A stretch of DNA of 14,220 nt from Candidatus Altiarchaeales archaeon WOR_SM1_SCG. Its GTDB lineage: Archaea; Altiarchaeota; Altiarchaeia; IMC4; WOR-SM1-SCG. Location: positions 1 to 14,220 of the forward strand of contig MCBE01000255.1 in assembly GCA_001723845.1 (NCBI GenBank), given 5' to 3'. The translations under genes and the position numbers were made by a program. This document shows positions 1,384 to 14,220 of the stretch, piece after piece; position 1 is the first letter of the stretch; each line of letters starts with the position of its first letter. Under the pieces are notes generated by a model. The model made no database searches, was not told where the DNA came from, and saw only the letters and a program-made list of their open reading frames with translations.

Positions 1384-1959
1384 ATGAAATTCCAAAAATT
1401 TAAGCACGATTCAAAAATTTTGATTTTATTTGTTTTTGTTTCAGTAGTTCTATTTTCAGGATGCACCGAGGTTAATGAACGGGCAGTAGGAAACTCTTCA
1501 GATGAAACACCGGGGCAAATTGAAGTTAAATGCGGAATTGTTAATGAATTGTGCTGTGAAAATAATACCTGTAATTCTAATCTGTCTTGTGTTGAAAATA
1601 GATGTATGAATTTTAAAGTAGCAAACATAAGCACGGAAAACCCAAAGTATGCCGCAAACCAGCAAATTAAAATTTCAGTAAATATTAATTCAACAAGTGA
1701 TGTAAATAATGTCTCGCTTCGTGTTTACGGGATAACATCAAGGCAAAAAAAGCATTTGATGGATAAAACGATAAATTTGAATTTAACTCAAGGTATAAAC
1801 ATCCGGAATTTTACAGTGAACGCCCCTGCTTGCACTCACGGGTGCGGCGCTAAATATTATCCCGGAGATTACCCCCTGTATGCCGAAATCTTATATAAGG
1901 ACGAAATAAATAATATTTCAATTTCAGATGGAAACCAGATTATGGTGAACCTGTACTGA
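1384..1959 (+). CDS. Secreted Cys-rich glycoprotein or lipoprotein candidate (hypothetical)
   Basis: An N-terminal signal peptide (KILILFVFVSVVLFSG-C) ends in a lipobox-like SGC. It is followed by a 6-Cys knot, CGIVNELCCENNTCNSNLSCVENRC. There are at least seven N-x-S/T sequons (NIS, NST, NVS, NLT, NFT, NIS). No recognisable enzyme motif is present. Confidence 0.6.
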   Translation: MKFQKFKHDSKILILFVFVSVVLFSGCTEVNERAVGNSSDETPGQIEVKCGIVNELCCENNTCNSNLSCVENRCMNFKVANISTENPKYAANQQIKISVNINSTSDVNNVSLRVYGITSRQKKHLMDKTINLNLTQGINIRNFTVNAPACTHGCGAKYYPGDYPLYAEILYKDEINNISISDGNQIMVNLY

Positions 1960-2034
1960 AACTAATAATTTTAAATAAATTATGGGCAGGGCATAAATGC
2001 TGTTCCGTACGATTCATGCCGGATGCCGTTTGAC

Positions 2035-2070
2035 GGAATTTATGAAAAATTCCGGGGGGAACTTTTTTTT
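2035..2070 (+). terminator. Hairpin (GGAATTT-ATGAA-AAATTCC), then a G6 run, then a T8 tract; an archaeal oligo-T terminator candidate
   Basis: A perfect 7-bp inverted repeat at 2035-2053 is followed by GGGGGGAAC and TTTTTTTT at 2063-2070. A second perfect hairpin, GCGACA-GGAAAT-TGTCGC, lies at 2077-2094. Archaeal termination relies on oligo-T tracts. The site is about 100 nt downstream of the 1384..1959 CDS. Confidence 0.35.
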
Positions 2071-2175
2071 GTGCTTGCGACAGGAAATTGTCGCTTAAAA
2101 GAGTTTCCGGTATTACATCTATTTAAAGAATTAAACAATAAATAATTAATAGACAATTTATTTATATTTTATACC

Positions 2176-3804
2176 ATGCCTGAAAAAATGAAAATTAATA
2201 CAATAAATGAGCCGCTCTGCCAGGGAGATATAATCTACTTTGTTTTAACGGACAGATTTCGCGACGGGCTCAAAGGAAATAATAACGGCGGGAATTTTAA
2301 TGCCGCACCTTCGGAACCAGAAAACCCGGGAAAATATCACGGCGGGGATTTAAAGGGAATTATTGATTCCATACCTTATCTTTCAAAATTAGGTATTACT
2401 GCCCTGTGGATTACGCCCGTGTATTTGAACATAGGCGAATGCGGGGATGGGGACAGTTATCACGGTTACTGGGCGCTTGATTTTGATAAAATTGACCCGC
2501 ATCTTCTCCCCAAAGGTTCCGATCTCGGTAAAAAGAACCTGCGCGAGTTAAGTGATACACTCCACAAACACGGGATAAAATTAATCCTTGACATGGTCGT
2601 TAACCATACGGGGTATCATACCGGTAATTACAAAGATTACCATAAAAAAGGCGATTTTAAACCGGGTTCCGAATGGTTTGGAAAAAATCCCGGATTAAGC
2701 ACCGGGGGACTTCCAGATATTGATTTCGGTCCTGATGGAAAAGAAGAGAAACCGACCCAGGTGCACTCGGATGTAAGAGATTTCTTTGTCAACAATATAA
2801 TTGACTGGATTGAGGACTCAGGGATAGACGCCATAAGAATGGATACCATAAGATATGTTGAAGATGCTTTCTGGTATTATTTTAAAAGTTATGTTCGCGG
2901 GAAATACAGAAATGTTGCATTGATAGGCGAGGACCTTGGAGGGGATATTGATGAAGTTGCAAAATACCAGAAACAAATGGACATAGATTGCATGTTTGAT
3001 TTTGAATTAACATACAATATACTTGATGTGATGATGTGCGATCATGATAGGTTTAATGACAAAAAAGAACTAAACTTTGGAATGATGTGCCTTGCAAGCC
3101 CGAGGATTCATGAATGGGAAGAACATAAGGGAATACTGGATGTTGACACCAAAAAGTACACGAATGCAAATCGTCTTGTTACGGTGCTTGACAACCACGA
3201 CCTTGAGAAAAGAATTATGAGCTGGGGTTTAACGAAATCCTGCGGCAACAAGGAGTGGGCAGCACGGCTCGTTAGATATGTTTTAGCATTCCAGTTTACA
3301 ACCAGGGGAATTCCATGTATATACTACGGGACGGAACTATGTCTTGAAGGTTCAAGGGAATCCGGGGGCGATGCTGATCTGCGAAAGGATTTCCCGTGGG
3401 AACTGATAGATAAATCAACCCGTGAACCTGGAAAGTATATAGACCGGATTAAATGTGATATGTATTACTTTGTGAAACAGCTGATACAATTAAGAAAAAC
3501 ACACGATTCATTAAAATACGGGATACTTTTCACATTATATGTTGATAGGGATTTCTATGCATACATGAGAGAATGGCGAGGTGAGGTGGTAATAACGGTC
3601 CTGAATAATAAATGCACGGATGATAAAAGCACCGTAGAAATAGATATCAAAAGCAACATAAATATTCCGTCCAGGATAAAGAATATTCTCAATGATAGAG
3701 TCCTGAGGGATGCAATTGAAAAAAGATATAAAACAAAATGTTCAAACGGTAAACTGTCAGTTTCTCTTAAAGGGAAAACTGCCCGCATCCTTACGCTGTT
3801 TTGA
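2176..3804 (+). CDS. GH13-family alpha-amylase, cyclomaltodextrinase or neopullulanase-like glycoside hydrolase (cytoplasmic, no signal peptide)
   Basis: The GH13 conserved regions are present: DRFRDG; GGDLKGIIDSIPYLSKLGITALWITPVY; region II GIKLILDMVVNHTG; region III DAIRMDTIRYV (nucleophile Asp); GEDLGG (acid/base Glu); region IV VLDNHDL. An alternative start is the ATG at 2188 (MKINTINE), with TATA-like TTTATATTTTATA at about 2160-2172. Confidence 0.88.
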   Translation: MPEKMKINTINEPLCQGDIIYFVLTDRFRDGLKGNNNGGNFNAAPSEPENPGKYHGGDLKGIIDSIPYLSKLGITALWITPVYLNIGECGDGDSYHGYWALDFDKIDPHLLPKGSDLGKKNLRELSDTLHKHGIKLILDMVVNHTGYHTGNYKDYHKKGDFKPGSEWFGKNPGLSTGGLPDIDFGPDGKEEKPTQVHSDVRDFFVNNIIDWIEDSGIDAIRMDTIRYVEDAFWYYFKSYVRGKYRNVALIGEDLGGDIDEVAKYQKQMDIDCMFDFELTYNILDVMMCDHDRFNDKKELNFGMMCLASPRIHEWEEHKGILDVDTKKYTNANRLVTVLDNHDLEKRIMSWGLTKSCGNKEWAARLVRYVLAFQFTTRGIPCIYYGTELCLEGSRESGGDADLRKDFPWELIDKSTREPGKYIDRIKCDMYYFVKQLIQLRKTHDSLKYGILFTLYVDRDFYAYMREWRGEVVITVLNNKCTDDKSTVEIDIKSNINIPSRIKNILNDRVLRDAIEKRYKTKCSNGKLSVSLKGKTARILTLF

Positions 3805-3989
3805 ATTAGAACAGAGTAATTTTAATTTGCTTAAACTTTGCTTCCTGTAATCGGTAACGGAAGAGGCACTGGAATATACTGAAAACCGGCTTCGCGCGGG
3901 TATGTGCCTGCGCTAAATAAAGCAAATAAAATTTTAAATAGATTAATTTAAATTAAAGATTAATTAATTATTATTGCCGAGGTATTGAA

Positions 3990-4910
3990 ATGACTGAAAA
4001 TTTAACCGATATTTTAAAGGAAGGATTTGAATTATGGAAAAATAATCCGGTACTTGGAATCCCGCCGCTTTTGGGCTGGATAATACAGTACGGCTTGTGG
4101 TTTATAGCAGGTATTATTATAATGTTTGCGGTACTGGGAGTCGGTCTTGGTGCAGTATCGCTTTCGGAAAATATTGAAAACATTAACGCTTTAATCCAGT
4201 CGCTGGGTGCTGCTGCCGTATTTATATTCCTGGTTGTTGCGTTTTTAATTGTTATAACTCTTTTAATTGACGCATTCTTTAAAGCAGGGCTTATCGGAAT
4301 GTCAAAAGAAGCGATTGAAACAGGAAAAACGGAAATTTCAACTATGGTTGAGTGCGGCAAAAGAAAATTTATACCTGTATTTTTTGCAAATTTAATAATT
4401 TTGATATTATCCCTGCTTCCGTTAATAATTGCGGGAATAATATTTTTAATATTAATTGCTTCGGGCGCGGCATCAATTGAGAGTTTCGGGGATGCGGAAA
4501 TCGTAAAATATACATTTTTATTTCTGCTGCTGCTTGTGATATTTCTGCTCTGGATTTTATACGCGATCGTAATAGATATAATATTTTCAGTCGCTATTTA
4601 TGCCGTGGTCATATCAGACACGGGAGCGGTTGAAGGTTTAAGGTTGGGCTTTAGATTTTTCATGAAAAACAAACTTAATGTCTTTTTGATGTGGCTTATA
4701 ATTTTATGTATATCTTTTGTTTTCGGAAGCATCTATTACATGATACAGGTGTTTCTCAGTTTCATACCTATTATCGGTGCAATTGTCGGTTTTGTCCTCT
4801 GGGTTGTCTTTTATGTTTTCATGGCAGCAGTATTCACCCCTATTACTGCCCTCTGGTGGAGCAGGATTTACATGGACGGGGGGGAAATTAACAAAAAATT
4901 AACAATTTAA
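3990..4910 (+). CDS. Polytopic integral membrane protein of unknown function (roughly 6-7 TM; resembles GP-PDE-membrane/DUF-type archaeal membrane proteins)
   Basis: The 306-aa ORF is very hydrophobic, with repeated 20-25-aa helices and short charged loops. Its C-terminal region is similar to the partial ORF at the window start. It has no catalytic motifs. Confidence 0.6.
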   Translation: MTENLTDILKEGFELWKNNPVLGIPPLLGWIIQYGLWFIAGIIIMFAVLGVGLGAVSLSENIENINALIQSLGAAAVFIFLVVAFLIVITLLIDAFFKAGLIGMSKEAIETGKTEISTMVECGKRKFIPVFFANLIILILSLLPLIIAGIIFLILIASGAASIESFGDAEIVKYTFLFLLLLVIFLLWILYAIVIDIIFSVAIYAVVISDTGAVEGLRLGFRFFMKNKLNVFLMWLIILCISFVFGSIYYMIQVFLSFIPIIGAIVGFVLWVVFYVFMAAVFTPITALWWSRIYMDGGEINKKLTI

Positions 4911-5002
4911 ATGTTAATCTTAATTTTAATTTAAATTCATAAAAATTTTAATTCATAAATAAAAATAACCAATAATAATCAATAATAACCACTAAAATCA
5001 AA

Positions 5003-5779
5003 ATGTTTGCAGAATTATTAACCCTTGTAATTTTTGGAATTTTCTTTTTATTTTTCGCACTGCCCATAATTACTTTAATTGTAACGAGATTTGTAAAAAT
5101 AATTGTTCAATACGAGCGAGGCATGTTGTTTGCAGTGGGCAAATTCGCAAGTATTCTTGAGCCGGGCGTAAATTTTGTAATCCCTTTCTATCACCGGCTT
5201 GAAAAAATTGATATGAGAGTCACGACGATTGATGTGCCTAAACAGGAAGTTATGAGTAAAGACAATGTTCCGGTAAACATTAATGCAGTGCTGTACTTCA
5301 GGGTGTTTGACCCGGAAAAGGCAATACTTAATGTTGAGGACTACACTTATGCGATTTCAAAGTACGCGCAGACATCGCTTAGAAATGTTACGGGGGAGGC
5401 GACGCTTGATGAAATGCTCTCGGAGCGGCAGCAGATTGCAGAGAAATTAAGAAAGATTGTTGACGAGGCAACAGACCAGTGGGGTATAAAGGTTATTGCA
5501 CTTGAACTCCAGGACATTGAACTGCCTGAAGGGATGAAAAGAACAATGGCAAAACAGGCGGAAGCAGAAAGGGAAAAAAGAGCGGCAATAATTAAAGCGG
5601 AAGGGGAAGTCGCCGCATCAAAAAATCTTTCGGATGCGGCAACGATTCTAAGAGGCGTTAAAGGCGCACTGCACCTGCGAACACTGCATTCATTAAATGA
5701 CATGTCATCAGACCAGAGCAATACAATTGTATTTACAGTGCCGCTTGAAGTTTTGCGTGCTCTTGAGGATGTTGATTAA
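5003..5779 (+). CDS. SPFH/Band-7 (stomatin/prohibitin-like) protein with an N-terminal TM anchor
   Basis: An N-terminal hydrophobic helix (LLTLVIFGIFFLFFALPIITLIV) is followed by an SPFH core (QYERGMLFAVGKF...VPKQEVMSKDNVPVNINAVLYFRV...LRNVTGEATLDEMLSERQQIAEKL...) and a coiled-coil AKQAEAEREKRAAIIKAEGE segment, which is typical of stomatin-like proteins. Confidence 0.9.
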   Translation: MFAELLTLVIFGIFFLFFALPIITLIVTRFVKIIVQYERGMLFAVGKFASILEPGVNFVIPFYHRLEKIDMRVTTIDVPKQEVMSKDNVPVNINAVLYFRVFDPEKAILNVEDYTYAISKYAQTSLRNVTGEATLDEMLSERQQIAEKLRKIVDEATDQWGIKVIALELQDIELPEGMKRTMAKQAEAEREKRAAIIKAEGEVAASKNLSDAATILRGVKGALHLRTLHSLNDMSSDQSNTIVFTVPLEVLRALEDVD

Positions 5780-5834
5780 AAATAATATAAAAATTTAAAA
5801 TTAAATTCGATATTTAAAAAATATAAAATTTAAA

Positions 5835-6263
5835 ATGCAGGGCAATATAACGGGATTCAACTTGGAAGATTCGGAGCAGGCAAAAAAAGGAGCGATATTT
5901 TTTGCAGTGGGAATCGTATTCCTCGTTATTGCAGGCACATTCGGGTTTTCAAACCCAACCCTCGCTATTGTTTTAGCAATTTTATGTGCAATTTCTTTAA
6001 CAATCGGTATGTATTTACTAAGCCCGGACAATAAAGACAGTAAAAATAATAAAATGGAATCCGCTGGCTTTGAACAGGATGTACTTTTAAAACCCTCCTG
6101 TAAAAGTACCAAAGACAGGCACACGGGAGGAATTATATTTGCATTCGGGATATTTATATTATTATCCTCGCCGTTATGGGCGCAATTCACGGAAATGCTG
6201 ATTATTACACTTGTAACCGGGGGAGTGATTATGGCTTATGGTCTTTACAGGATTGTCAATTAA
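5835..6263 (+). CDS. Small 4-TM membrane protein with an internal 2-TM duplication, encoded between the two SPFH paralogs
   Basis: The first half (GAIFFAVGIVFLVIAGTFG...LAIVLAILCAISLTIGMYLL) mirrors the second half (GGIIFAFGIFILLSSPLWA...LIITLVTGGVIMAYGLYRI). It is not NfeD-like: there is no OB-fold or ClpP-like domain. The gene sits in the same orientation, 55 nt after the first SPFH gene and 44 nt before the second. Confidence 0.55.
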   Translation: MQGNITGFNLEDSEQAKKGAIFFAVGIVFLVIAGTFGFSNPTLAIVLAILCAISLTIGMYLLSPDNKDSKNNKMESAGFEQDVLLKPSCKSTKDRHTGGIIFAFGIFILLSSPLWAQFTEMLIITLVTGGVIMAYGLYRIVN

Positions 6264-6307
6264 AATCACAAAATTAAAATTTCAATTAAATTAAAATAAA
6301 ATTCAAA

Positions 6308-7039
6308 ATGCCGTTAAAAATAATAAACCAGTACGAAAAAGGGGTTTTGTTTTCCCTTGGTAAATTCAAGGGTCTGCGGGACCCGGGATTGAATACCTAT
6401 GTCCCGATCCTGCAGAAAATTGTGAAAATAGACATAAGAGTAAAGACCGTGGACATCCCGAAACAGGAGGTTATGACAAGGGATAATGTGCCTGTAAAAA
6501 TAAACGCCGTGATTTACTTTAAAATAATTGATCCTGAAAAGGCGGTACTTAATGTCAGGGATGTCATTTATGCAACATCAAAATACGGGCAGCTTGCACT
6601 CCGCAATGTTGTCGGGCAGACAACGCTTGATGAATTGCTTTCCGAAAGACAGCAGATTGCAGACCAGTTGAGAAACATCGTTGACGAAGCAACCGACCCG
6701 TGGGGTGTTGATGTGACAATGATTGAATTACAGGATATTGAACTCCCTGAAACCATGAAAAGAACCATGGCAAAACAGGCGGAAGCGGAAAGGGAAAGAA
6801 GGGCGGTTATAATAAACTCCGAGGGCGAGGTAATTGCCGCAGAAAATATTGCACAGGCAGCCAAAACACTTTACGCAACGCCGGGCGCACTGCACCTGAG
6901 AACACTGCACTCGGTAAATGACCTTTCATCAGATAGATCGCAGACAATCGTGTATGCAATACCTATAGAAATCCTGCGGGTACTTGAGCGGCTCGGTGAT
7001 ATGCTTGAAAAGGAAAACAAAAGAAGAAAAGTGAAATAA
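6308..7039 (+). CDS. SPFH/Band-7 (stomatin-like) paralog that lacks the N-terminal TM anchor
   Basis: It is about 60 percent identical by eye to the 5003..5779 product across the SPFH core (VPKQEVMTRDNVPVKINAVIYFKI...LRNVVGQTTLDELLSERQQIADQL...MKRTMAKQAEAERERRAVIINSEGE). It begins directly at the YEKGVLF motif. The upstream sequence is full of stops, so there is no hidden TM exon. Confidence 0.88.
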   Translation: MPLKIINQYEKGVLFSLGKFKGLRDPGLNTYVPILQKIVKIDIRVKTVDIPKQEVMTRDNVPVKINAVIYFKIIDPEKAVLNVRDVIYATSKYGQLALRNVVGQTTLDELLSERQQIADQLRNIVDEATDPWGVDVTMIELQDIELPETMKRTMAKQAEAERERRAVIINSEGEVIAAENIAQAAKTLYATPGALHLRTLHSVNDLSSDRSQTIVYAIPIEILRVLERLGDMLEKENKRRKVK

Positions 7040-7101
7040 ATAAGTGAATTTAAATTTAAATTTAATTCTTAATTCTAATTTATAAAATCAAAAACAGATT
7101 A

Positions 7102-7146
7102 ATTACATTAAATAAAATTACATTAAATAAAAATATATTAAATAAA
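7102..7146. repeat. Three tandem 15-bp direct repeats (ATTACATTAAATAAA x2, then a degenerate AATATATTAAATAAA copy) abutting the start codon of the aminotransferase gene
   Basis: Read directly from the sequence. The array ends 2 nt before the ATG at 7149. It may be a promoter or operator element, or simply AT-rich slippage. Confidence 0.45.
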
Positions 7147-7148
7147 AA

Positions 7149-8222
7149 ATGGATAAACCGAAATTATTTACCGTCGGACCGACTTATGTAAACGAAGATG
7201 TGAGAGAGGAAATGAAGCGTCAAATGTTTTCCCACAGGAGTTCTGATTATGTGAAACTTCACAGTGAATTAATTGAAAAATTAAGGGAATTTTTAAACAC
7301 TGAAAATGAAATTTTTATTTACACATCATCATCAACAGGATGTATGGAGTCCGGTGTAAGGAATATGATATCAGATAGCGGAACAGGGCTTAGTACAATC
7401 TGCGGTGCTTTTGGTAAAAGATTCGGTGAAATTATTGAGCAAAACGGGAGAAAACTCGTTGAAAGTGAAGTTGAATGGGGCGAGGCAAACAGGGGCGAGC
7501 AGCTTGATGAAGTGCTTTCTAAAAATCCGGGTGTTGAAGTTGTGACAATCACGCACTGCGAGACATCAACCGGTCTTTTAAATCCTCTTGATGAGTTATG
7601 CAAGGTTGCAAAAGAGCATGATGTTTTAACAATGGTTGATACGGTAAGTTCAATGTCCGGGACAAGGATTGAAATAGACAAGCTTGGTATTGACTTCTGT
7701 TTTTTCGGCGTCCAGAAATGCTTTTCGGTGCCGCCGGGACTTGCAATTGCAGTGGTAAGTAAAAAAGCAATGGAAAAGGCAGAAACCGTAAAGAACAGGG
7801 GGCATTATTTTGATTTTTTGAATTTGAAAAAATACAACGACAAAAACATGATTCCATACACGCCGCCGATTCCCCAGATGTTTGGTCTTTCAAAGCAGCT
7901 GGATATGATTATTGATGAAGGCGCAGGAAATAGATTTTACAGGCACAGCAAGATTTCCGCAAGAGTGAGAAACGGCTGCAAGGATTTAGGATTCGGCGTT
8001 TTTCCCGATGAGAAATACGCGGCTCCGACACTCAGCTGCATTTCAAACCCCCTGGAAGTTGACCTTGCCGAAATGAATTCTAAAATGAAAGAGCGAGGGT
8101 TTATTCTTGCTTCAGGTTACGGTAAAATCAAGGATACGACATTCCGTATCGGGAACATGGGTAATGTTACACTTGATGATGTTAACGAGATGCTTGAGAA
8201 TCTGGAAGAGGTTGTCGGGTAA
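7149..8222 (+). CDS. Class V pyridoxal-phosphate-dependent aminotransferase (AGXT/SgaA family; archaeal phosphoserine or serine-glyoxylate aminotransferase-like)
   Basis: The N-terminus LFTVGPTYVNEDVREEM and the PLP-lysine context FFGVQKCFSVPPG (the GSQK...PPG signature of class V aminotransferases) are present. The length is 357 aa. The closing motif is TFRIGNMGNV. Confidence 0.85.
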   Translation: MDKPKLFTVGPTYVNEDVREEMKRQMFSHRSSDYVKLHSELIEKLREFLNTENEIFIYTSSSTGCMESGVRNMISDSGTGLSTICGAFGKRFGEIIEQNGRKLVESEVEWGEANRGEQLDEVLSKNPGVEVVTITHCETSTGLLNPLDELCKVAKEHDVLTMVDTVSSMSGTRIEIDKLGIDFCFFGVQKCFSVPPGLAIAVVSKKAMEKAETVKNRGHYFDFLNLKKYNDKNMIPYTPPIPQMFGLSKQLDMIIDEGAGNRFYRHSKISARVRNGCKDLGFGVFPDEKYAAPTLSCISNPLEVDLAEMNSKMKERGFILASGYGKIKDTTFRIGNMGNVTLDDVNEMLENLEEVVG

Positions 8223-8229
8223 AAATTAA

Positions 8230-8400
8230 TGGGACCGCCGAGATTTGAACTCGGGTTACCAGCTTTTCGTTTCACAGTCAGGCAGTTTAAGCCATCTCAA
8301 CAAAATGGGCTACGCTTTGCTCCGCGACATTTCCGCGTATAACTTGGAAATGAGGAGAATCCCCGAGCTGGAAGGATGAACCAAGCTACCCTACGGTCCC
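8230..8400 (-). tRNA. tRNA gene interrupted by a roughly 97-nt intron. Isotype is unresolved; the weak best guess is anticodon CGG (Pro) if the loop is CUCGGG just before the intron
   Basis: On the minus strand the 5-prime acceptor GGGACCG at 8400-8394 pairs perfectly with the 3-prime CGGTCCC. The D arm is GGGT/AGCTTGGTTC/ATCC. The T arm is CCGAG-TTCAAAT-CTCGG, followed by discriminator A. The intervening roughly 100 nt separate CCAGCT from AGCTGG, which are exact reverse complements and form an anticodon-stem-like helix. CCA is not encoded. Confidence 0.75.
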
Positions 8401-8445
8401 GTAATTATTGATTAGAATTGAAGTTTAATATCAATTTTATTATTT

Positions 8446-11400
8446 TCATTTTATCGCTTCTTCAACACTTAAACTTTTAAAGCCCTTGCTGTTTGCTAAA
8501 TTTCTTTTATTTGAATCTTCTGCAAGAACCACCTTTGCACCCACCTGCATTGCCAGTGCAACAGTTTCATCGCCGACTTCTTCTAAATATTTCCGTCCTT
8601 TTGCATTTAACTCTACCTCCTTTATCCTGCCGTCTTTTTTTATCTCCCCCATAATCGCTTTATAGGTTGCAGGCGTCACATAAATTTTATTGAATTTACC
8701 AATTGCCCTGCCTAATTTACCTTCATTTTTTGCCTTTTCTAAAAATACCATATCTGCGACCGCCTTTTTCTTTCCAAGCAGCAATAATAATAAAATTAAA
8801 ATTATGATTAAAACCGGAACCCAGTACCACCAGGACATGCCCTTTACGGAAATTTCTGCCTTTTCACTTTCAATATAACCTTTTTTACTTGCCGAAGCGT
8901 CAATTTTCCCTGCTTGATTTTCAATAAATTGAATATTACCCTTATCATCTGTTGTAAATGTTCGCCCGTCAGAAGTGATAACCGATGCGCCTGAAACAGT
9001 ATTGCCTTTCTCGTCAGTAACATTGCAGGTTATTATTTCACCGGTTTCAACATTTTCAGGGCAATTAATTATTAATTTTTGTGCCGGGCAGGTACCGCAA
9101 TCTTCACTACAGGTCTCGCAGGTTTCATCGCCCTCGCATTTTCCGTCACCGCAGACAATTTTCGGTGGACATGTACCGCAATCAATTTCACAATTTCCAC
9201 AGGTATCATCACCTTCACACTTCCCGTCGCCGCAAACCGCAGGACATGCACCGCAATCAATTTCGCAATTTGAGCAGTTTTCATCACCCTCACATATTCC
9301 GTCACCGCATACTGCAGGACATGCACCGCAATCAATTTCGCAGTTTGAGCAGTTTTCATCACCTTCACATATTCCGTCACCGCAAACCGCAGGACATGCA
9401 CCGCAATCCGATTCGCAATTTTCGCAGATCTCGTTGCCTTCACATACGCCGTTGCCGCATACCTCGGTCGGGATTGATGGTTTTGGTTTACCATTGGATT
9501 TTCCTGGTTTTTTGCATGCTTTAATCTCTCCGTCACAATCTTCGTCTATATTATTTCCACAGATTTCAGTTGAATTTGGATTAACACCCGGGTTTGTGTC
9601 GTTGCAATCAACCGGGGTATCACAAAGTGTAAAGTTATCGGAATCGGAATCAATTGGTGCATTCACACACGCATCTGAATTTTCATCACATGAATCGTTT
9701 GTGCACGAAATATTATCATCACAGGTTGGCGGTGTTCCCGCCCGGCAGCCGGTAAGGTTGCATACTTCTGCGCCATTGCACCATAAACCGTCATCGCAGG
9801 CAGAATCATCCGGTGTGTAAACGCAGCTTCCGCCGCTGCAGGTATCACCGGTGCATGCCACCTCATCATCACAGGCATTACATCCGGATTTTACTGTCTG
9901 TGTACCTGTTACCGAATAAGTGCAGGAGGTTTCCGAGCAATAATAATTTCTGTACTCCTGCTCCTGGCAGGTGCATACCTGGTTTTCGTCACAGCAATCG
10001 TAGAGTGCGCTGACATTATACCAGCCGTCTTGACTATTGCAGTTTGTACAAGAAGTGCATCCGCAGTCGGTATCCGAACCCGAGCAATACGGAGTATAGA
10101 TGCAATTTCCGCCGCTGCAGGTATCGGATGTGCATGAATTTCCATCATCACACGCATTGCAGCCGGATTTTACTGTCTGTGTACCGGTCACCGAATAAGT
10201 GCAGGAGTTTCCGGAGCAATAATAATCCCTGTGCTCCTGCTCCTGGCAGGTGCATTTCTGGCTTCCGTTGCAACAATCGTAGGGCGCGCTGATATTATAC
10301 CAGCCGTCCTGGCTGTTGCAGTTTGTACAGGAAGTGCATCCGCAGTCGGTATCCGAACCCGAGCAATACGGAGTATAGATGCAATTTCCGCCGCTGCAGG
10401 TATCGGATGTGCATGAATTTCCATCATCACACGCATTGCAATTATATTTCATTACCCGTGTATCGTTTTCCGTATAATTACATGAAAATTCAGAGCATTG
10501 CGTTCCGGAGCAGTAATAATCCCTGTATGTTTGATTCCGGCATGTGCAGTTCTGGTTTGCGTCACAGCAAGCGTAAGGATCGCTGCTGTTATACCACCCG
10601 TCGGAATTGTTGCAGTCATCACAGTTTGTGCAAGGATGAGTACAGGGATTCCCGTCAGGCGTATCATTCCATACGGTTGCACTATTACATGTGTTGTTAT
10701 CCCCAAAACTTGAGCAGCCGCACTCACTATCATCACAATTTATATCGTCAACGGTATTTGAACAGAATATATTGTAATTTACCTGATTATTGCCTGAACA
10801 CATATCTATATTCAAGCCGTATTCGTTATATCTTGCGATATTATTGATTATGTTGTTGTTGTCCGAATTATATAAGTAAATTCCGGAATAATTATTTAAA
10901 TTTACACAATTATTTATGATGCCGTTATTCCATGAATAGTATAAACAAATTCCCTCGTAATTTTCATTGACCGTGTTGTTGATTATGTTTGAATTATCTT
11001 CATTATCAAATACAATTCCGCATCTATCGCACTCACCACCCACCAGGCCGTTATAAAACACCCTGTTGTTCGTGATATTGTTATAACTCTCATAAATCCC
11101 ATTATCATAAATCTCATTTCCACCATAGATTACTATCCCGCTGCAAAAATTAGAACTTACATTGTTATTATCAATCGTGTTGTAACTTGAACTATCTAAA
11201 TAAATTCCGGTACTAAAATTATAAATATTAAAATTATTTATGATAATATTATTTTTTCCATAAGCATATATCCCGTTTCCGGTGGTGTCTCCGGTTATAC
11301 TAAATCCATTGCCGTCAATTGTGATATTATCCGCTCCAACCGTAAAGCATGTGCCGTTTGAATTTAAATTACAATTCAGTGTGCAGGATTCCATTATTGT

Positions 11401-13308
11401 TTCCCCGCAGGTGTAATTATAGGTTCCGTTGTCGCAGCCGCAATGTGCTGGCGTGCAGGAATAACTGCATCCTGCTGTTCCGGCGTCATTCCAGCCATAA
11501 GTTGTGTCGCAGGTATTATCGTCACCGGCATTATTATTTCCTTCGTTGTGAATATCGGTATTTATGATACCGTTAAAGCAAGCAGTGTTTTCATTAAGCG
11601 TATTATCGTCGGATGAATACAAACCAATGCCTTGAAGGTGGTTATACATGGCAGTGTTATTGGTTATATTATTGCGGTGCGATTCGTGCAATCTGATACC
11701 GTGACAATCTCCGGCAACATCATTTAAATTTGCAGTGTTGCCATAAATCAAATTATCATCCGAGTAGAGAAGATCAATACCTACGCCTTCCGGTGCGGAT
11801 GGTCCGTGATTCTCATTCGCGATGTTTTTTACAATTGTATTATTATTTGCATAATATAAATAAATACCTTTCCTATCGTTTGAACTTGCATTATTTCCGG
11901 TAACATTGTTGTAATATGATTGATTTAGGCAGATGCCGTAATAATTGTACAATGCTGTGTTGTTGATTATATTGTTGTATTGTTCACCGAATTTCAGGTA
12001 GACCCCGTATAACTGATTTAAATTTACCGTGTTATTGATTATGTCATTGTAATTATTCCCTGTAACTGATCCCAGATGTATTCCTATGTTGTTTTCTAAA
12101 ACATCGTTGCCGATTATTCGGTTATACCCACTATACTGTGTCAGATAAATACCGTTATTGGTGTTATTATAGATTTTGTTATCAATTAGAGTGTTATTGT
12201 TTGAGCCAGATAATTCAATCCCATTATCTGAGTTGTTATTTACTGTGTTGTCATCTAATGTGTTGCTTAAGGAATAATATAAATAAATCCCATGATTAGT
12301 GTTGTTATTCGCTGTGTTGGATACCAGAGTGTTGTTGTTTGAGGATGACTCTACCCTAATTCCGTTAAAATTATTTGAGCTTGCAGTGTTGTTGATTACT
12401 TTATTGTTTGAGGAATCAAGTATGCGAATTCCGTCATAATTATTTGAATCCGCCGTGTTGTTTGAAACAGTGTTATTTAAGGAAGAATATAAATAAATAC
12501 CGTACCCGTTGGAACTTGCCGTGTTGTCTGTAACAGTGTTATTTTTTGAAATATACATATAAATTCCTGTCTGTTCACTGCCGTTTATTGTATTATTATT
12601 TATTTTACTATTATTCACCGCATTTAAAGAAATTCCATAAGAGAAATTATAAATATTAAAATTTTTTATTGTTACATTATTTCTTCCGTCTGCATAAATC
12701 CCGTCTCCGGTGGCATCCCCGGTTATATTGAATCCCGCACCATCAATTGTGATATCATCCGCTCCAAGGGTAAAGCAATCGCCGGTTGAATTTAAATTAC
12801 AATTCATTACGCAGGATTCCATCACCATTTCCCCGCAGGTGTAATTACGGGTTCCGGTGTCGCAGCCGCACAGTGCAGGTACACAGGAATAACTGCACCC
12901 TCTTGCTCCGGTATCGTTCCAGCCAAATACCGTGTCACAAGTATTATTGTCGCCGGCATTATCGTCAGAATCATTAATATCCCAACCATTACCGCAGATT
13001 AAATTTGAACTTAAATTATTATTATTTGAATTTGAAGCAAAGTAAACGCCGTAGTCAGTATTGTTTACCAGGGTATTATTTGTTAAATTATTAGATCCCG
13101 AATTATACAGGAAAATTCCATAAGCTGCACCATTGTCCCTGTCGCAGTAATTATCATTTGCCGTGTTATTAACCAGAGCATTGTTTGAGGAAGAATATAG
13201 GCGAATTCCATAAGAATTGCTGGATGTGCCGCAGTAATTATCATTTGCTGTGTTTCTGGTCAGGTCATTGTAGTGTGAATCATATAAATAAATCACGTAT
13301 CCTCTCAA
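8446..13308 (-). CDS. Giant (1620 aa) N- and C-rich cell-surface protein that appears 5-prime truncated. It contains parallel beta-helix (PbH1/NosD-like) repeats, Cys-rich tandem modules and an Ig-like domain, then a single C-terminal TM helix and a 109-aa cytoplasmic tail
   Basis: A continuous 4.86-kb ORF spans the locus. Dozens of roughly 22-aa NNTxxxNxxxGIxLyxSxNNxI repeats make up the beta-helix part. Two copies of a CSYSC..CGCD..TCGE...ITIDG.GF.ITGD module are present, then 3 x 93-aa CSGGNCIYTPYCSGSDTDCGCTSC... repeats and 5 x 25-aa CPAVCGDGICEGDENCSNCEIDCGA repeats. The TM helix is MSWWYWVPVLIIILILLLLLL, followed by GKKK. N-x-S/T sequons are very frequent, consistent with archaeal N-glycosylation. 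There is no signal peptide. The ORF begins on a TTG inside a repeat unit, with an in-frame stop 13 codons upstream and no ATG. Confidence 0.85.
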   Translation of the reverse strand: MRGYVIYLYDSHYNDLTRNTANDNYCGTSSNSYGIRLYSSSNNALVNNTANDNYCDRDNGAAYGIFLYNSGSNNLTNNTLVNNTDYGVYFASNSNNNNLSSNLICGNGWDINDSDDNAGDNNTCDTVFGWNDTGARGCSYSCVPALCGCDTGTRNYTCGEMVMESCVMNCNLNSTGDCFTLGADDITIDGAGFNITGDATGDGIYADGRNNVTIKNFNIYNFSYGISLNAVNNSKINNNTINGSEQTGIYMYISKNNTVTDNTASSNGYGIYLYSSLNNTVSNNTADSNNYDGIRILDSSNNKVINNTASSNNFNGIRVESSSNNNTLVSNTANNNTNHGIYLYYSLSNTLDDNTVNNNSDNGIELSGSNNNTLIDNKIYNNTNNGIYLTQYSGYNRIIGNDVLENNIGIHLGSVTGNNYNDIINNTVNLNQLYGVYLKFGEQYNNIINNTALYNYYGICLNQSYYNNVTGNNASSNDRKGIYLYYANNNTIVKNIANENHGPSAPEGVGIDLLYSDDNLIYGNTANLNDVAGDCHGIRLHESHRNNITNNTAMYNHLQGIGLYSSDDNTLNENTACFNGIINTDIHNEGNNNAGDDNTCDTTYGWNDAGTAGCSYSCTPAHCGCDNGTYNYTCGETIMESCTLNCNLNSNGTCFTVGADNITIDGNGFSITGDTTGNGIYAYGKNNIIINNFNIYNFSTGIYLDSSSYNTIDNNNVSSNFCSGIVIYGGNEIYDNGIYESYNNITNNRVFYNGLVGGECDRCGIVFDNEDNSNIINNTVNENYEGICLYYSWNNGIINNCVNLNNYSGIYLYNSDNNNIINNIARYNEYGLNIDMCSGNNQVNYNIFCSNTVDDINCDDSECGCSSFGDNNTCNSATVWNDTPDGNPCTHPCTNCDDCNNSDGWYNSSDPYACCDANQNCTCRNQTYRDYYCSGTQCSEFSCNYTENDTRVMKYNCNACDDGNSCTSDTCSGGNCIYTPYCSGSDTDCGCTSCTNCNSQDGWYNISAPYDCCNGSQKCTCQEQEHRDYYCSGNSCTYSVTGTQTVKSGCNACDDGNSCTSDTCSGGNCIYTPYCSGSDTDCGCTSCTNCNSQDGWYNVSALYDCCDENQVCTCQEQEYRNYYCSETSCTYSVTGTQTVKSGCNACDDEVACTGDTCSGGSCVYTPDDSACDDGLWCNGAEVCNLTGCRAGTPPTCDDNISCTNDSCDENSDACVNAPIDSDSDNFTLCDTPVDCNDTNPGVNPNSTEICGNNIDEDCDGEIKACKKPGKSNGKPKPSIPTEVCGNGVCEGNEICENCESDCGACPAVCGDGICEGDENCSNCEIDCGACPAVCGDGICEGDENCSNCEIDCGACPAVCGDGKCEGDDTCGNCEIDCGTCPPKIVCGDGKCEGDETCETCSEDCGTCPAQKLIINCPENVETGEIITCNVTDEKGNTVSGASVITSDGRTFTTDDKGNIQFIENQAGKIDASASKKGYIESEKAEISVKGMSWWYWVPVLIIILILLLLLLGKKKAVADMVFLEKAKNEGKLGRAIGKFNKIYVTPATYKAIMGEIKKDGRIKEVELNAKGRKYLEEVGDETVALAMQVGAKVVLAEDSNKRNLANSKGFKSLSVEEAIK
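9089..9463. repeat. Five tandem 75-bp repeats (coding 25-aa CxxCGDGxCEGDExCxNCExDCGxCP modules) inside the giant gene
   Basis: The units at 9164-9238, 9239-9313, 9314-9388 and 9389-9463 are near-identical and share the core GCAGGACATGCACCGCAATCAATTTCGCA...; an outer copy at about 9089-9163 is more diverged. Confidence 0.85.
9810..10690. repeat. Three tandem 279-bp repeats (93-aa Cys-rich modules) inside the giant gene
   Basis: CCGGATTTTACTGTCTGTGTACC recurs at 9884 and 10163. A 60-bp block is identical at 10101-10160 and 10380-10439. The third copy, from about 10440, is more diverged. Confidence 0.8.
11185..11529. repeat. Internal duplicated module, copy 2 (roughly 345 bp; the Cys-knot plus first beta-helix turns), homologous to 12613..12957
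   Basis: The protein segments NAGDDNTCDTTYGWNDAGTAGCSYSCTPAHCGCDNGTYNYTCGETIMESCTLNCNLNSNGTCFTVGADNITIDGNGFSITGD and NAGDNNTCDTVFGWNDTGARGCSYSCVPALCGCDTGTRNYTCGEMVMESCVMNCNLNSTGDCFTLGADDITIDGAGFNITGD match. The DNA offset is 1428 bp, with about 80 percent nucleotide identity by eye. Confidence 0.75.
12613..12957. repeat. Internal duplicated module, copy 1, homologous to 11185..11529
   Basis: The evidence is the same as for copy 2. The spurious plus-strand ORFs 12786..12977 and 11349..11567 in the six-frame track encode near-identical peptides, which confirms duplication at the DNA level. Confidence 0.75.
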
Positions 13309-13416: not shown

Positions 13417-13560
13417 TCAATCCTTAAGTATAATAAGATAAACTCTCTTGCCCATATACTCTTTTGGACAAATCACTTTTGCTCCGCTTCCGAATGGGGT
13501 GACCTTTCTCTCGATAAAACCGAGAACCCCACTAACTTTTATTTCTGTTTGTTCTTTCAT
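13417..13560 (-). CDS. Small 47-aa protein with a swapped-hairpin (AbrB/SpoVT-like) signature that resembles the archaeal putative transposon-encoded protein family. It is absent from the ORF track because it is under 60 aa
   Basis: Translating the minus strand by hand from ATG (13560-13558) to TGA (13419-13417) gives MKEQTEIKVSGVLGFIERKVTPFGSGAKVICPKEYMGKRVYLIILKD. The pattern V-x-P-F-G-x-G-A-x-V-x-x-P-K-E-x-x-G-K-x-V, followed by a hydrophobic strand, is typical of small DNA-binding beta-barrel proteins found next to archaeal transposase genes. Confidence 0.5.
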   Translation of the reverse strand: MKEQTEIKVSGVLGFIERKVTPFGSGAKVICPKEYMGKRVYLIILKD

Positions 13561-13658
13561 AAGTATTTTTTTCATTGTATTTATTTGGGCCATATATTTT
13601 CAGTGGTTTATAGTATATATTAAATATATACTTAAATAAGTAATTCTAATATTATAAT

Positions 13659-14220
13659 ATGAAACAAAAAGATCTGTTGGAAAATTTGGATATTGATCTC
13701 AAGTGCATCGCAGACAAGAAAATAAAGGCGACAATATTGCTCCTTTTCAGTAGGGTAGAGGATTTATCTTCAACTGTTCACAAGCAGCAACAAGAAATTC
13801 AGCGGTTGCGGGACGAGAATAATAGATTAAAAGGCGAACAAGGAAAACCAAACATCAAACCAAATAAAAAGAAGTTGTCTATAGATTTCTCCTCTGAAAA
13901 AGAACGCAAAAAAGCAGACAACCTCCCAAAACGAAAAAGAGATACAAAAAAGGACAAAATTAAAATAGACCGAAAAGAAAAATGCAAGATAAATAGAACT
14001 ATGCTGCCTCCTGATGCCATATTTAGCAGGTATGCAACCGTAGTTGTTCAAGATTTAAAAATAGTAACGGATAACATTGAATTTCAAAAAGAGGTGTGGT
14101 ATTCACCATCGCAAAACAGGACTTACATGGCGGATCTCCCACCGGGTTATAAAAAAGAATATGGTCCCGGAGTCAAAACAATAGCAATTAATATGAAAAA
14201 TGCCTGCAATATGTCCGAGC
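13659..14220 (+). CDS. Transposase, 3-prime partial (runs off the window); IS66-like features
   Basis: The reading frame is open from the ATG at 13659 to the window end (187 codons, verified by hand with no stops). An N-terminal leucine-zipper-like coiled coil (EIQRLRDENNRLKGEQ) is followed by a Lys/Arg-rich linker (KPNIKPNKKKLS...KRKRDTKKDKIK) and then a ...ADLPPGYKKEYGPGVKTIAI segment that resembles the conserved GPGL region of IS66-family TnpC. No CxxC zinc finger is seen, so the family assignment is tentative. Confidence 0.45.
   Translation, partial: MKQKDLLENLDIDLKCIADKKIKATILLLFSRVEDLSSTVHKQQQEIQRLRDENNRLKGEQGKPNIKPNKKKLSIDFSSEKERKKADNLPKRKRDTKKDKIKIDRKEKCKINRTMLPPDAIFSRYATVVVQDLKIVTDNIEFQKEVWYSPSQNRTYMADLPPGYKKEYGPGVKTIAINMKNACNMSE

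What the first reader, a model, noticed from the sequence alone, without database searches (positions are those of the whole stretch)
8446..13308. A 1620-aa mosaic surface protein: beta-helix repeats, three kinds of Cys-rich tandem modules, an Ig-like domain, a TM anchor and a cytoplasmic tail
Domain order:
- The N-terminal 1000 aa are roughly 22-residue Asn-rich parallel beta-helix turns (NNTxxxNxxxGIyLyxSxNNxI), interrupted twice by a CSYSC-CGCD-TCGE Cys knot.
- Next come 3 x 93-aa CSGGNC...CTCQEQE...CNACDDGNSCTSDT modules.
- Then 5 x 25-aa CPAVCGDGICEGDENCSNCEIDCGA modules.
- Then an Ig-like roughly 75-aa domain.
- Then one TM helix and a 109-aa tail.

N-x-S/T sequons are extremely dense. 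The combination is adhesin or S-layer-associated in flavour, but the Cys-module types and the cytoplasmic tail are not a textbook architecture.
Basis: partly seen in the sequence, partly recalled or inferred. Interest (0 to 1): 0.7.

Follow-up and report, generated by a model that had tools for sequence, protein, structure and literature searches.

The report
Truncated archaeal surface protein, PIN tail
This is the 3' part of a gene for a giant membrane-anchored surface protein of an uncultured Altiarchaeales archaeon; the outside part is an ordinary beta-helix adhesin type, but the short inside tail folds like a PIN ribonuclease domain, a combination not described before.

Summary
Three points change the picture.

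- **The ORF is incomplete.** The window is a whole 14,220-bp contig of the single-cell genome Candidatus Altiarchaeales archaeon WOR_SM1_SCG. A 98%-identical metagenome contig is collinear only up to nt 13300. There the same gene continues at least 183 codons further upstream. The window ORF starts mid beta-helix, has no signal peptide, and abuts unrelated DNA carrying a DUF2080 gene.
- **The cysteine-rich (Cys) parts are a mix of known and unknown types.** The Cys "knots" are standard junctions of archaeal NosD-type beta-helix blocks. Parts of the stalk match the Dicty_CTDC and MopE motifs. The core of the 93-aa module and the CGDGxCE mini-modules match no family, and the 93-aa core has no known fold.

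Whether the tail cuts RNA is untested.

The parts
8446..13308 (-). The ORF as found: 1620 codons plus stop. It is the 3' part of a longer gene. NCBI annotates it from the GTG at codon 5 as ODS36283.1, 'hypothetical protein BEH94_01730', 1616 aa.
   Evidence: truncation shown
13288..13300 (.). Breakpoint. Collinearity with the syntenic metagenome contig L004 (98.26% identity over window 1-13300) ends here. The last 13 nt already carry 3 mismatches.
12997..13308 (-). Remnant of beta-helix block A (residues 1-104). It aligns with the last ~105 residues of block B, with 53% identity over residues 6-200 versus 482-676.
12775..12996 (-). Cys-rich junction 1 (residues 105-178): C-cap of one helix block plus N-cap of the next ('GDNNTCD..GWND..GCSYSC..CGCD..YTCGE..C..NC').
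11581..12774 (-). Beta-helix block B (residues 179-576), NosD/right-handed parallel beta-helix repeats.
11347..11580 (-). Cys-rich junction 2 (residues 577-654), 72% identical to junction 1.
10765..11346 (-). Beta-helix block C (residues 655-848).
9811..10764 (-). Cap-like Cys segment plus three ~93-aa modules (residues 849-1166). Each module has a 'DGWYN..CC..C.C..RDYYCSG.SC.YSVT' core with no family match and no known fold, followed by a Dicty_CTDC-type repeat 'CNACDDGNSCTSDTCSGGNC'.
9514..9810 (-). Further CTDC-like Cys repeats and a MopE-type putative metal-binding motif 'ICGNNIDEDCDG' (residues 1167-1265).
   Evidence: PF11617 37.9 bits, cut-off 27
9088..9462 (-). Five CGDGxCEGxExCxxCxxDCGxC mini-modules (residues 1283-1407). 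No Pfam or NCBIfam match. The same modules precede the Ig domain in most tail-family members.
8842..9078 (-). Membrane-proximal Ig-like (CarboxypepD_reg-like) domain, residues ~1411-1489.
8776..8832 (-). Single TM helix W1493-L1511. It is preceded by the aromatic WWYW motif and followed by G-KKK.
8449..8775 (-). Cytoplasmic PIN-fold domain (residues 1512-1620). Candidate pocket residues are D1519, T1545, D1580/E1581 and E1597/D1598. Y1549 and Q1588 are invariant across the family.
13417..13593 (-). 58-aa DUF2080 gene in the unrelated DNA beyond the breakpoint. It is named 'transposase-associated', but the domain is also described as an antitoxin domain.
13659..14220 (+). Partial ORF running off the contig end. 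It has a coiled-coil and basic N-terminus and no family match. It belongs to the foreign segment beyond the breakpoint.

Best explanation
**Summary.** The ORF is the 3' 4.86 kb of a longer gene. The gene encodes a giant single-pass (type I) cell-surface protein of an Alti-2 clade Altiarchaeales archaeon.

**Outside the cell (shown by profile matches).** Several NosD-type right-handed beta-helix blocks are joined by Cys-rich cap junctions. They sit on a stalk made of Cys-rich modules (the uncharacterised 93-aa module, Dicty_CTDC-like repeats, a MopE motif and five CGDGxCE mini-modules) and a CarboxypepD_reg-like Ig domain.

**Inferred function of the ectodomain.** It most likely binds or processes glycans, or acts as an adhesin, as is assumed for the many archaeal NosD-repeat proteins. 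It is probably N-glycosylated.

**Membrane anchor and tail.** A WWYW-leucine-rich TM helix followed by KKK fixes the C-terminus in the cytoplasm (inferred from the positive-inside rule and from the absence of Cys and sequons in the tail). The 109-aa tail is a minimal PIN-fold domain (shown at fold level).

**A reusable cassette.** 'CGDG modules - Ig - TM - KKK - PIN' is a lineage-restricted anchor cassette. It is attached to unrelated ectodomains in at least three paralogues of this population.

**Most likely mechanism of the tail (inference).** It works as a dimer, as VapC-type PIN domains do; one paralogue carries two copies in tandem. It places a metal-binding, RNA-binding or RNA-cutting pocket (D1519, D1580/E1581, E1597/D1598, T1545) at the inner face of the membrane beneath the surface protein.

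**State of this copy.** The gene is cut at nt 13288-13300. Either foreign DNA carrying a DUF2080 gene was inserted there, or the junction is a chimera of the amplified single-cell genome. As encoded in the window, the product has no signal peptide and could not be exported.
For: **Source and truncation**
- The window is the whole WOR_SM1_SCG contig (PMC4975002).
- Window 1-13300 matches L004 523-13844 at 98.26% identity. The L004 gene continues to at least 1803 codons, adding another Cys junction and helix block.
- Residues 6-200 align with residues 482-676.
- The in-frame sequence upstream of the start is not helix-like.

**The gene is real and under constraint**
- The window and L004 copies differ by no indels, and dN/dS is 0.136. 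The neighbouring genes give 0.134 and 0.141.

**Ectodomain**
- More than 1900 homologues were found, and the named ones among the best 120 are all archaeal.
- The junction motif occurs in 28 of those best 120 homologues.

**Topology**
- There is a single hydrophobic segment followed by KKK. The tail has 0 Cys and 0 sequons.
- Full-length relatives P0122, P0125 and P0131 have N-terminal signal peptides.

**PIN fold**
- The AF2 model has pLDDT 94.5 and pTM 0.86.
- The best Foldseek TM-score, 0.70, is also to a PIN domain, 1v96.

**Acidic positions, by the criteria of PMC5499597**
- After strand S1: Asp in 13 of 14 sequences.
- At the N-terminus of helix H4: Asp in 14 of 15 sequences.
- After S4: an acidic residue at positions 86-87 in 11 of 15 sequences.
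- After S2: Thr in 12 of 15 sequences.

**The cassette and its rarity**
- Only 17 clusters among 1.84 billion representatives match the tail.
- The shared architecture is visible.
- P0122 carries two tandem PIN domains.
- The contigs of P0122 and P0123 carry neighbours at least 90% identical to WOR_SM1_SCG proteins.
Against: - No sequence profile (Pfam or NCBIfam at E<=10, PDB profile search) links the tail to PIN families. The assignment rests on a predicted structure.
- Foldseek E-values are marginal, and its list mixes PIN domains with generic alpha/beta folds.
- The fourth acidic residue, usually after S2, is absent. An invariant Tyr sits in that helix instead.
- The canonical S4 Asp is Asn in 7 of 15 family members, so some or all members may be inactive.
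- I could not measure distances in the model to confirm that the acidic residues cluster.
- No conserved partner gene was found. The downstream gene is a convergent aminotransferase.
- The true N-terminus was not recovered, so the signal peptide of this protein is inferred from paralogues.
- The function of the beta-helix part rests only on family membership.
Confidence: 0.7

Rival explanations
1. The PIN-fold tail is a catalytically dead scaffold. It serves only to dimerise or cluster the surface protein, or to dock it to a cytoplasmic partner, with no RNA involved.
For: - The fourth canonical acidic residue after S2 is missing.
- The S4 Asp is Asn in 7 of 15 sequences.
- The only invariant residues, Y38 and Q77, are not catalytic PIN residues.
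- The best structural match, 2mdt, is listed as an example of a predicted inactive PIN in PMC5499597.
- Inactive PIN domains such as Utp23 are known.
- The tandem PIN in P0122 fits a dimerisation role.
Against: - Asp after S1 and Asp at the N-terminus of H4 are kept in 13/14 and 14/15 sequences. Thr after S2 is kept in 12/15.
- Every member has an acidic residue within a few positions after S4.
- The window copy itself has five acidic residues at pocket positions: D1519, D1580, E1581, E1597 and D1598.
Confidence: 0.4
2. The 1616-1620-aa ORF is a complete gene as annotated in GenBank (ODS36283.1), so the protein starts at the TTG or GTG near nt 13300.
For: - The record annotates it as an intact hypothetical protein.
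- The ORF has no internal stops.
Against: - The start lies inside a beta-helix repeat.
- There is no signal peptide ahead of about 1490 aa of Cys-rich, sequon-rich sequence.
- A 98%-identical contig continues the reading frame at least 183 codons upstream.
- The only ribosome-binding-like GAGGAG nearby precedes an ATG in another frame.
Confidence: 0.04
3. The breakpoint at 13288-13300 is an artefact, either a chimera of multiple-displacement amplification or an assembly error in the single-cell genome. The cell then carries an intact gene.
For: - WOR_SM1_SCG is a single-cell amplified genome.
- The ORF shows no decay, and dN/dS is 0.136, like its neighbours.
- The contig ends 920 nt beyond the junction, so no second element end or target duplication can be seen.
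- No other copy of the foreign segment was found in any fetched locus.
Against: - The foreign segment carries a gene of a family that NCBI calls transposase-associated. That fits a real insertion.
- No reads were available to test either view.
Confidence: 0.4
4. It is a polymorphic-toxin or contact-dependent-inhibition type effector: a long beta-helical filament that delivers a C-terminal PIN nuclease toxin into neighbouring cells.
For: A giant beta-helix protein with a C-terminal nuclease-fold domain resembles CdiA/Rhs-type architectures (my own knowledge of those systems; fold).
Against: - The pattern of variation is the reverse of polymorphic toxins. The C-terminal cassette is conserved, and the N-terminal ectodomains vary between beta-helix, DUF11 and DUF1616 types.
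- A TM helix plus a KKK cluster separates the tail from the ectodomain.
- There is no downstream immunity gene; the next gene is a convergent aminotransferase.
Confidence: 0.03

Closest known systems
Archaeal NosD-domain / right-handed parallel beta-helix repeat surface proteins (PF05048, PF13229, TIGR03804)
   Same: - Multiple beta-helix blocks with Asn-rich ~22-aa turns, found in very large secreted proteins of uncultured archaea.
- The same Cys-rich junction occurs between blocks in 28 of the 120 best hits.
   Different: - The best hits are only 30-47% identical over at most 53% of the query.
- None of the 120 has the CGDG modules by motif search.
- None of the six metagenome paralogue loci fetched (L006-L011) has the PIN tail.
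- It is not NosD proper: TIGR04247 scores 115 bits against a cut-off of 300.
Minimal VapC-like PIN domains (e.g. SSO1118, PDB 2mdt; PH0500, 1v96; Nob1; Utp24/Fcf1)
   Same: - Acidic residues lie after S1, at the N-terminus of H4 and after S4, and there is a Thr after S2.
   Different: - No detectable sequence-profile similarity.
- It is fused behind a TM helix to a giant ectodomain, not a free ~130-aa toxin with an antitoxin gene.
- The acidic residue after S2 is missing.
- The invariant Tyr and Gln are specific to this family.
PIN.COG4956 (YacL-type PIN-TRAM proteins with four N-terminal TM helices; PDB 3ix7)
   Same: - It is a membrane-tethered PIN domain facing the cytoplasm. It is the only TM-linked PIN family mentioned in PMC5499597.
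   Different: - Here there is one TM helix N-terminal to the PIN, with a large extracellular part.
- There is no TRAM domain.
- YacL-type proteins are almost all bacterial, whereas this family was seen only in archaeal metagenome contigs.
Ire1 (eukaryotic type I membrane sensor with a cytosolic RNase)
   Same: Analogy only: a single-pass protein with a large external domain and an internal ribonuclease-fold domain that would act as a dimer.
   Different: - The RNase fold is unrelated (KEN domain versus PIN).
- There is no kinase domain here.
- No evidence of signalling was found.

Membership tests
Right-handed parallel beta-helix / NosD-repeat proteins | Repeated beta-helix turns matching PF05048, PF13229 and TIGR03804 above the curated cut-offs | tested here: met
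   231.6 bits (cut-off 23.6), 192.6 bits (cut-off 25.9) and 276.3 bits (cut-off 19.45)
NosD proper (N2O-reductase maturation, TIGR04247) | Full-length match above the subfamily cut-off of 300 bits | tested here: not met
   115 bits. No nos genes are nearby.
PIN domain-like superfamily | Compact alpha/beta/alpha fold with a central parallel sheet, superposable on solved PIN domains | tested here: met
   [not shown]
PIN domain-like superfamily | Three near-invariant acidic residues: after S1, at the N-terminus of H4, and after S4 (PMC5499597) | tested here: met
   The window protein has D1519, D1580 (plus E1581) and E1597/D1598. Across the family the counts are 13/14, 14/15 and 11/15 at positions 86-87. 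Mapping was by secondary-structure position only; distances in the model were not measured.
PIN domain-like superfamily | Fourth acidic residue, usually after S2 or in the following helix | tested here: not met
   The window protein has T1545-P-A-T-Y1549-K-A there. Tyr is invariant, and an acidic residue occurs at positions 39-40 in only some relatives.
PIN domain-like superfamily | Sequence-profile match to a PIN family model | tested here: not met
   No Pfam or NCBIfam hit at E<=10 or E<=1. No PIN domain was found in the PDB profile search.
PIN domain-like superfamily | Metal-dependent nuclease activity | not testable with these tools
   This needs biochemistry.
VapBC toxin-antitoxin module | Free-standing PIN toxin with an adjacent upstream antitoxin gene | tested here: not met
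   The PIN is the C-terminal domain of a protein of more than 1800 aa. No partner gene is present.
Polymorphic toxin / CDI effectors | Conserved N-terminal filament, variable C-terminal toxin, and a downstream immunity gene | tested here: not met
   The pattern is reversed: conserved C-terminal cassette, variable ectodomains. The downstream gene is a convergent aminotransferase.
Altiarchaeal hamus / archaeal S-layer proteins | S_Layer_N-type domain or homology to the hamus protein | tested here: not met
   No such Pfam match was found. Bird et al. report no hamus homologues with S_Layer_N domains in the WOR genomes.
Archaeosortase-type C-terminal sorting signals (PGF-CTERM and relatives) | Motif + TM helix + basic cluster at the extreme C-terminus | tested here: not met
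   WWYW + TM + KKK has the same three-part form, but 105 more folded residues follow and no PGF motif is present. The resemblance is from my own knowledge.
Dicty_CTDC repeat (PF00526) and Cu-binding_MopE motif (PF11617) | Match above the Pfam gathering score | tested here: met
   29.5 bits (cut-off 27) on an isolated module, and 37.9 bits (cut-off 27). Neither was reported at E <= 0.01 when the whole protein was scanned.
CarboxypepD_reg-like Ig domain (PF13620) | Match above the gathering score of 32.3 bits | tested here: inconclusive
   The window domain scores 31.2 bits. The homologous domains of paralogues score 58.1 and 73.7 bits.

The most novel reading that the evidence does not exclude
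The cassette is a transmembrane receptor-ribonuclease. Engagement or clustering of the giant ectodomain outside the cell would dimerise the PIN tails inside and switch on local RNA cleavage. That would be an archaeal, PIN-based analogue of Ire1-type outside-in signalling. Alternatively the tail could be a membrane-localised RNase that couples surface-protein load to mRNA decay.
Probability: 0.12. Interest if true: 0.85.

Novelty: new variant of a known kind. Interest (0 to 1): 0.55.

Why it matters
- **A new context for PIN domains.** They are known as free toxins, RNA-processing enzymes and, in bacteria, YacL-type polytopic proteins. The PIN-superfamily classification I read (PMC5499597) does not describe a PIN domain as the cytoplasmic tail of single-pass surface proteins. 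If the tail is active, it would link the cell surface directly to RNA metabolism in a double-membraned, uncultured archaeal lineage.
- **A reusable anchor.** The cassette (CGDG modules, Ig domain, TM helix, PIN) is attached to unrelated ectodomains. That makes it a candidate lineage-specific surface-anchoring system.
- **An annotation error.** The GenBank entry ODS36283.1 is a 5'-truncated fragment annotated as a complete protein.
- **Two unclassified extracellular modules.** The core of the 93-aa module and the CGDGxCE module are recurrent in DPANN-type and Altiarchaeales proteins and have no family. The 93-aa core also has no known fold.

Tried and rejected
- **Homologue search with residues 1405-1620** found nothing because the word index missed the family. 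The exhaustive HMMER search found the family.
- **Two scans of 185,579 species genomes** for the tail found no relative.
- **A metagenome scan for the missing 5' end** returned only 39-56% identical paralogues without the PIN tail. The true N-terminus remains unknown.
- **The afdb50 fold library** was not available.
- **NCBIfam on the Cys modules and the tail** gave no hits.
- **The foreign segment beyond nt 13300** has no second copy in any fetched locus. Its partial ORF has no family match, so 'insertion sequence' could not be shown. DUF2080 is also described as an antitoxin domain.
- **Rejected readings:** complete gene as annotated, polymorphic toxin, VapBC module, hamus or S-layer protein, and NosD proper. 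The reasons are in the membership tests.
- **No tRNA genes** were found in the window, and **no terminator-like site** was found downstream of the gene.
Full report
**1. The observation**

The window holds one uninterrupted ORF on the minus strand, 8446-13308, of 1620 codons. Its composition is extreme: 15.8% Asn and 7.9% Cys.

Profile searches confirm the beta-helix reading:
- NosD PF05048, E = 8.6e-69, 7 stretches.
- Beta_helix PF13229, E = 4.4e-57.
- TIGR03804 parallel beta-helix repeat, 12 stretches.

The match to NosD proper (TIGR04247) is 115 bits against a cut-off of 300, so this is a NosD-type repeat protein and not the N2O-reductase maturation factor.

The domain order from N- to C-terminus is given below. 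Coordinates are my own residue count on the translation printed.

| Residues | Feature |
|---|---|
| 1-104 | Helix block A (remnant) |
| 105-178 | Cys junction 1 |
| 179-576 | Helix block B |
| 577-654 | Cys junction 2, 72% identical to junction 1 |
| 655-848 | Helix block C |
| 849-887 | Cap-like Cys segment |
| 888-980, 981-1073, 1074-1166 | Three ~93-aa modules (TRF: 279-nt period, 2.2 copies) |
| 1167-1265 | Further Cys repeats |
| 1266-1282 | Lys/Pro linker |
| 1283-1407 | Five 25-27-aa CGDGxCE modules (TRF: 75-nt period, 3.7 copies) |
| ~1411-1489 | Ig-like domain |
| 1493-1511 | Single hydrophobic helix |
| 1513-1515 | KKK |
| 1512-1620 | 109-aa tail |

There are 62 sequons against 40.3 +/- 5.4 in residue shuffles (z = 4). 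Nineteen of them are the NNT of the helix repeat itself, so part of the excess is structural.

**2. Where the window comes from, and the truncation**

Exact look-ups show the window is the complete 14,220-bp contig of Candidatus Altiarchaeales archaeon WOR_SM1_SCG (proteins ODS36276-36284). That genome is a single-cell amplified genome from methanogenic White Oak River estuary sediment, in the Alti-2 clade (PMC4975002). GenBank annotates the ORF from the GTG at codon 5 as ODS36283.1, a 'hypothetical protein' of 1616 aa.

The ORF has no ATG start and no signal peptide. It begins inside a helix turn: '..GYVIYLYDSHYNDLTRNTAND'. The in-frame sequence upstream ('*GEICGRLETLYF') is not helix-like. 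Residues 6-200 align with residues 482-676 at 53% identity, so the ORF begins about 300 residues into a helix block.

A syntenic JGI metagenome contig gives the decisive evidence. This is L004 (Ga0309836_1016683, 14,402 bp).
- It matches window 1-13300 at 98.26% identity and then diverges completely, with 17 of the next 60 bases identical.
- In L004 the same gene runs on for at least 1803 codons and off the contig end. This adds another Cys junction and helix block.
- Downstream of the breakpoint the two copies have no indels and 18 amino-acid differences.
- dN/dS is 0.136, the same as the neighbouring aminotransferase (0.134) and amylase-like gene (0.141).

So the repeat numbers are not assembly artefacts, and the gene is under purifying selection. 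The window ORF is nonetheless only the 3' part of it.

Beyond nt 13300 the window carries two features:
- A 58-aa DUF2080 gene: Pfam 1.9e-17, and NCBIfam 'transposase-associated'.
- A partial ORF without family matches.

Because the contig ends 920 nt further on, I cannot tell a real insertion from a chimera of the amplified single-cell DNA. DUF2080 has also been described as an antitoxin domain (PMC10440598), so the 'transposon' label rests on a name. A metagenome scan for the missing 5' end found only paralogues.

**3. The extracellular part**

- **Homologues.** The full-length search found more than 1900 homologues, all through the beta-helix part. Among the best 120, every source-given name is archaeal (Methanosarcinales, Archaeoglobaceae, Asgard, Thermoplasmata and DPANN-type lineages, Altiarchaeales). 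The best reach 30-47% identity over at most 53% of the query.
- **Cys 'knot'.** A profile built from the three copies of the Cys 'knot' hits 28 of those 120 proteins, often several times per protein. It is therefore the usual cap-to-cap junction of multi-block archaeal beta-helix proteins, not a special feature.
- **Known motifs in the stalk.**
  - The 'CNACDDGNSCTSDTCSGGNC' ends of the 93-aa modules match Dicty_CTDC at 29.5 bits (cut-off 27).
  - 'ICGNNIDEDCDG' matches the MopE-type putative metal-binding motif at 37.9 bits (cut-off 27).
- **Core of the 93-aa module.**
  - The core ('C..CN..DGWYN.G..Y.CCDG..KCTCQ.QEYRDYYCSG.SCTYSVT') has no family.
  - A search found only 12 proteins. They come from uncultured organisms, one named Aenigmarchaeota, and some carry Excalibur domains.
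- **CGDGxCE modules.** They match nothing in Pfam or NCBIfam.
- **Ig-like domain.** It scores 31.2 bits for CarboxypepD_reg, just under the cut-off of 32.3. Its homologues in paralogues score 58-74 bits.

**4. The tail**

An exhaustive HMMER search of the last 110 residues against 1.84 billion cluster representatives found 17 proteins. No relative was found in 185,579 species genomes.

Nearly all members long enough to show it share the same C-terminal cassette. Reading towards the C-terminus it consists of:
1. An Ig-like domain ('LIINC..V..G..ITC.VTD..GN.V.GA.V'), preceded in most members by CGDGxCE modules.
2. An aromatic motif (WWYW-like) plus a Leu-rich TM helix.
3. (R/K)KKK.
4. A ~105-aa domain.

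This cassette sits behind quite different ectodomains: DUF11, DUF7507, a DUF1616 polytopic protein, and beta-helix blocks. P0124 is the exception: it has the CGDGxCE modules, TM helix and tail, but no recognisable Ig-like domain. P0122, P0125 and P0131 have clear N-terminal signal peptides. P0122 carries the tail domain twice in tandem.

The contigs of P0123 and P0122 carry neighbours (Pelota, and a 679-aa protein) that cluster at 90% identity or more with WOR_SM1_SCG proteins ODS40240.1 and ODS37030.1. This population therefore has at least three paralogues with the cassette. The P0131 contig has an archaeal context, with PriL, aIF5B and a V-ATPase subunit.

AlphaFold2 with the 15-sequence alignment gives a confident model: pLDDT 94.5 and pTM 0.86, with topology b-a-a-b-a-b-a-a-b-a-b-a.
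- **Foldseek.** It is less clear. E-values are 7.7e-4 or worse, and generic alpha/beta folds are mixed in. Its best TM-score (0.70) is again to a PIN domain, 1v96.
- **Sequence profiles.** These see no PIN similarity.

The PIN classification of Matelska et al. (PMC5499597) gives criteria for the active site. The minimal PIN is 103 aa (2mdt). [quoted passage not shown] A fourth usually lies after S2. Ser/Thr residues often supplement them.

Mapped on the model's secondary structure, the family shows the following. Tail residue n equals protein residue 1511+n.

| Position | Window residue | Conservation in the family |
|---|---|---|
| After S1 | D8 | Asp 13/14 |
| After S2 | T34 | Thr 12/15 |
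| Helix after S2 | Y38 | Tyr 15/15 (no conserved acid here) |
| N-terminus of H4 | D69 | Asp 14/15 |
| N-terminus of H4 | E70 | acidic 13/15 |
| H4 | Q77 | Gln 15/15 |
| After S4 | T/A85-E86-D/N87 | acid at 86-87 in 11/15, otherwise within three more residues |

The window protein has D1519, D1580, E1581, E1597 and D1598. That is enough acidic residues for a canonical PIN pocket, but not in the fully canonical arrangement.

**5. Interpretation**

Shown:
- A 5'-truncated gene for a very large protein with NosD-type helix blocks and a Cys-rich stalk.
- An Ig-like domain, one TM helix, and a PIN-fold C-terminal domain of a rare, lineage-restricted family.

Inferred:
- Type I topology. This rests on the KKK after the helix, the absence of Cys and sequons in the tail, and the signal peptides in paralogues.
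- A glycan-binding or adhesive, glycosylated ectodomain.
- A tail that acts as a dimer at the inner membrane face and binds or cleaves RNA.

The alternative is that the PIN fold is a dead scaffold for clustering or docking. It is nearly as likely. I put an active nuclease at about 0.4-0.45.

The following readings fail defining features (see the membership tests):
- VapBC toxin-antitoxin module.
- Polymorphic-toxin or CDI effector.
- Hamus or S-layer protein.
- YacL-type PIN-TRAM protein.
- Archaeosortase sorting signal.

**6. Novelty and verdict**

The beta-helix ectodomain is an ordinary member of a very common archaeal class. The finding as written overstates its completeness. The new element is the architecture: a single-pass surface protein with a cytoplasmic PIN domain, as part of a reusable anchor cassette. 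I did not find it in the PIN-superfamily classification, where the only TM-linked family mentioned is the YacL type. Two full-text literature searches did not find it either.

I rate it a new variant of known kinds, of moderate interest, with a low-probability but interesting reading as a receptor-ribonuclease.

Noticed in passing
window 13417-13593 (-) and 13659-14220 (+): - A 58-aa DUF2080 gene and a divergent partial ORF (coiled-coil and basic N-terminus, no family match) form the foreign segment next to the truncated gene.
- DUF2080 is labelled transposase-associated by NCBIfam. It is also reported as an antitoxin domain paired with PIN/VapC-like toxins (PMC10440598).
- Its position just upstream of a PIN-tailed ORF is probably coincidence, since L004 lacks it.
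   Followed up: partly
L012:3034-3270 (+) and L014:7692-7931 (+): - Two homologous ~79-aa ORFs, each with a poly-Thr N-terminus (MITTTTTTTTT..) and two predicted TM helices.
- They lie directly upstream of two different PIN-tailed surface-protein genes (P0122 and P0131).
- They may be a conserved partner. The equivalent region of the window gene is missing.
   Followed up: partly
P0122 (L012:3264-5894), residues 655-875: This paralogue, from the same Altiarchaeales population, carries two PIN-fold tail domains in tandem after the TM helix. That suggests the functional unit is a PIN dimer.
   Followed up: partly
P0128 (L013:1523-5203): The same Ig-TM-PIN cassette is fused to a polytopic DUF1616 membrane protein with a long Glu/Lys-rich coiled-coil N-terminus. 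A separate DUF1616 gene also lies near P0131 (L014:11089-13023).
   Followed up: no
window 5003-7039 (+): Two paralogous SPFH/Band 7 genes (258 and 243 aa) flank a 142-aa membrane protein without a family match. This looks like a duplicated stomatin-type operon.
   Followed up: no
window 1384-1959 (+): A 191-aa protein with a lipoprotein-like signal sequence ('..LFSGC'), a small Cys-rich segment (CCENNTCNSNLSCVENRC) and many sequons. It has no family match and is conserved in related contigs.
   Followed up: no
window 8446-13296 (-): GenBank ODS36283.1 annotates the truncated ORF as a complete 1616-aa hypothetical protein starting at a GTG inside a beta-helix repeat. Its 90% cluster is represented by a 471-aa fragment, which is why the protein did not find itself in the homologue search.
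   Followed up: yes
window 413-862 (+): The mechanical TTG start of the ribosomal protein L13 gene gives 149 aa, and that exact sequence is not in the protein collection. The syntenic contig's gene call is 145 aa, so the true start is probably a few codons downstream.
   Followed up: no
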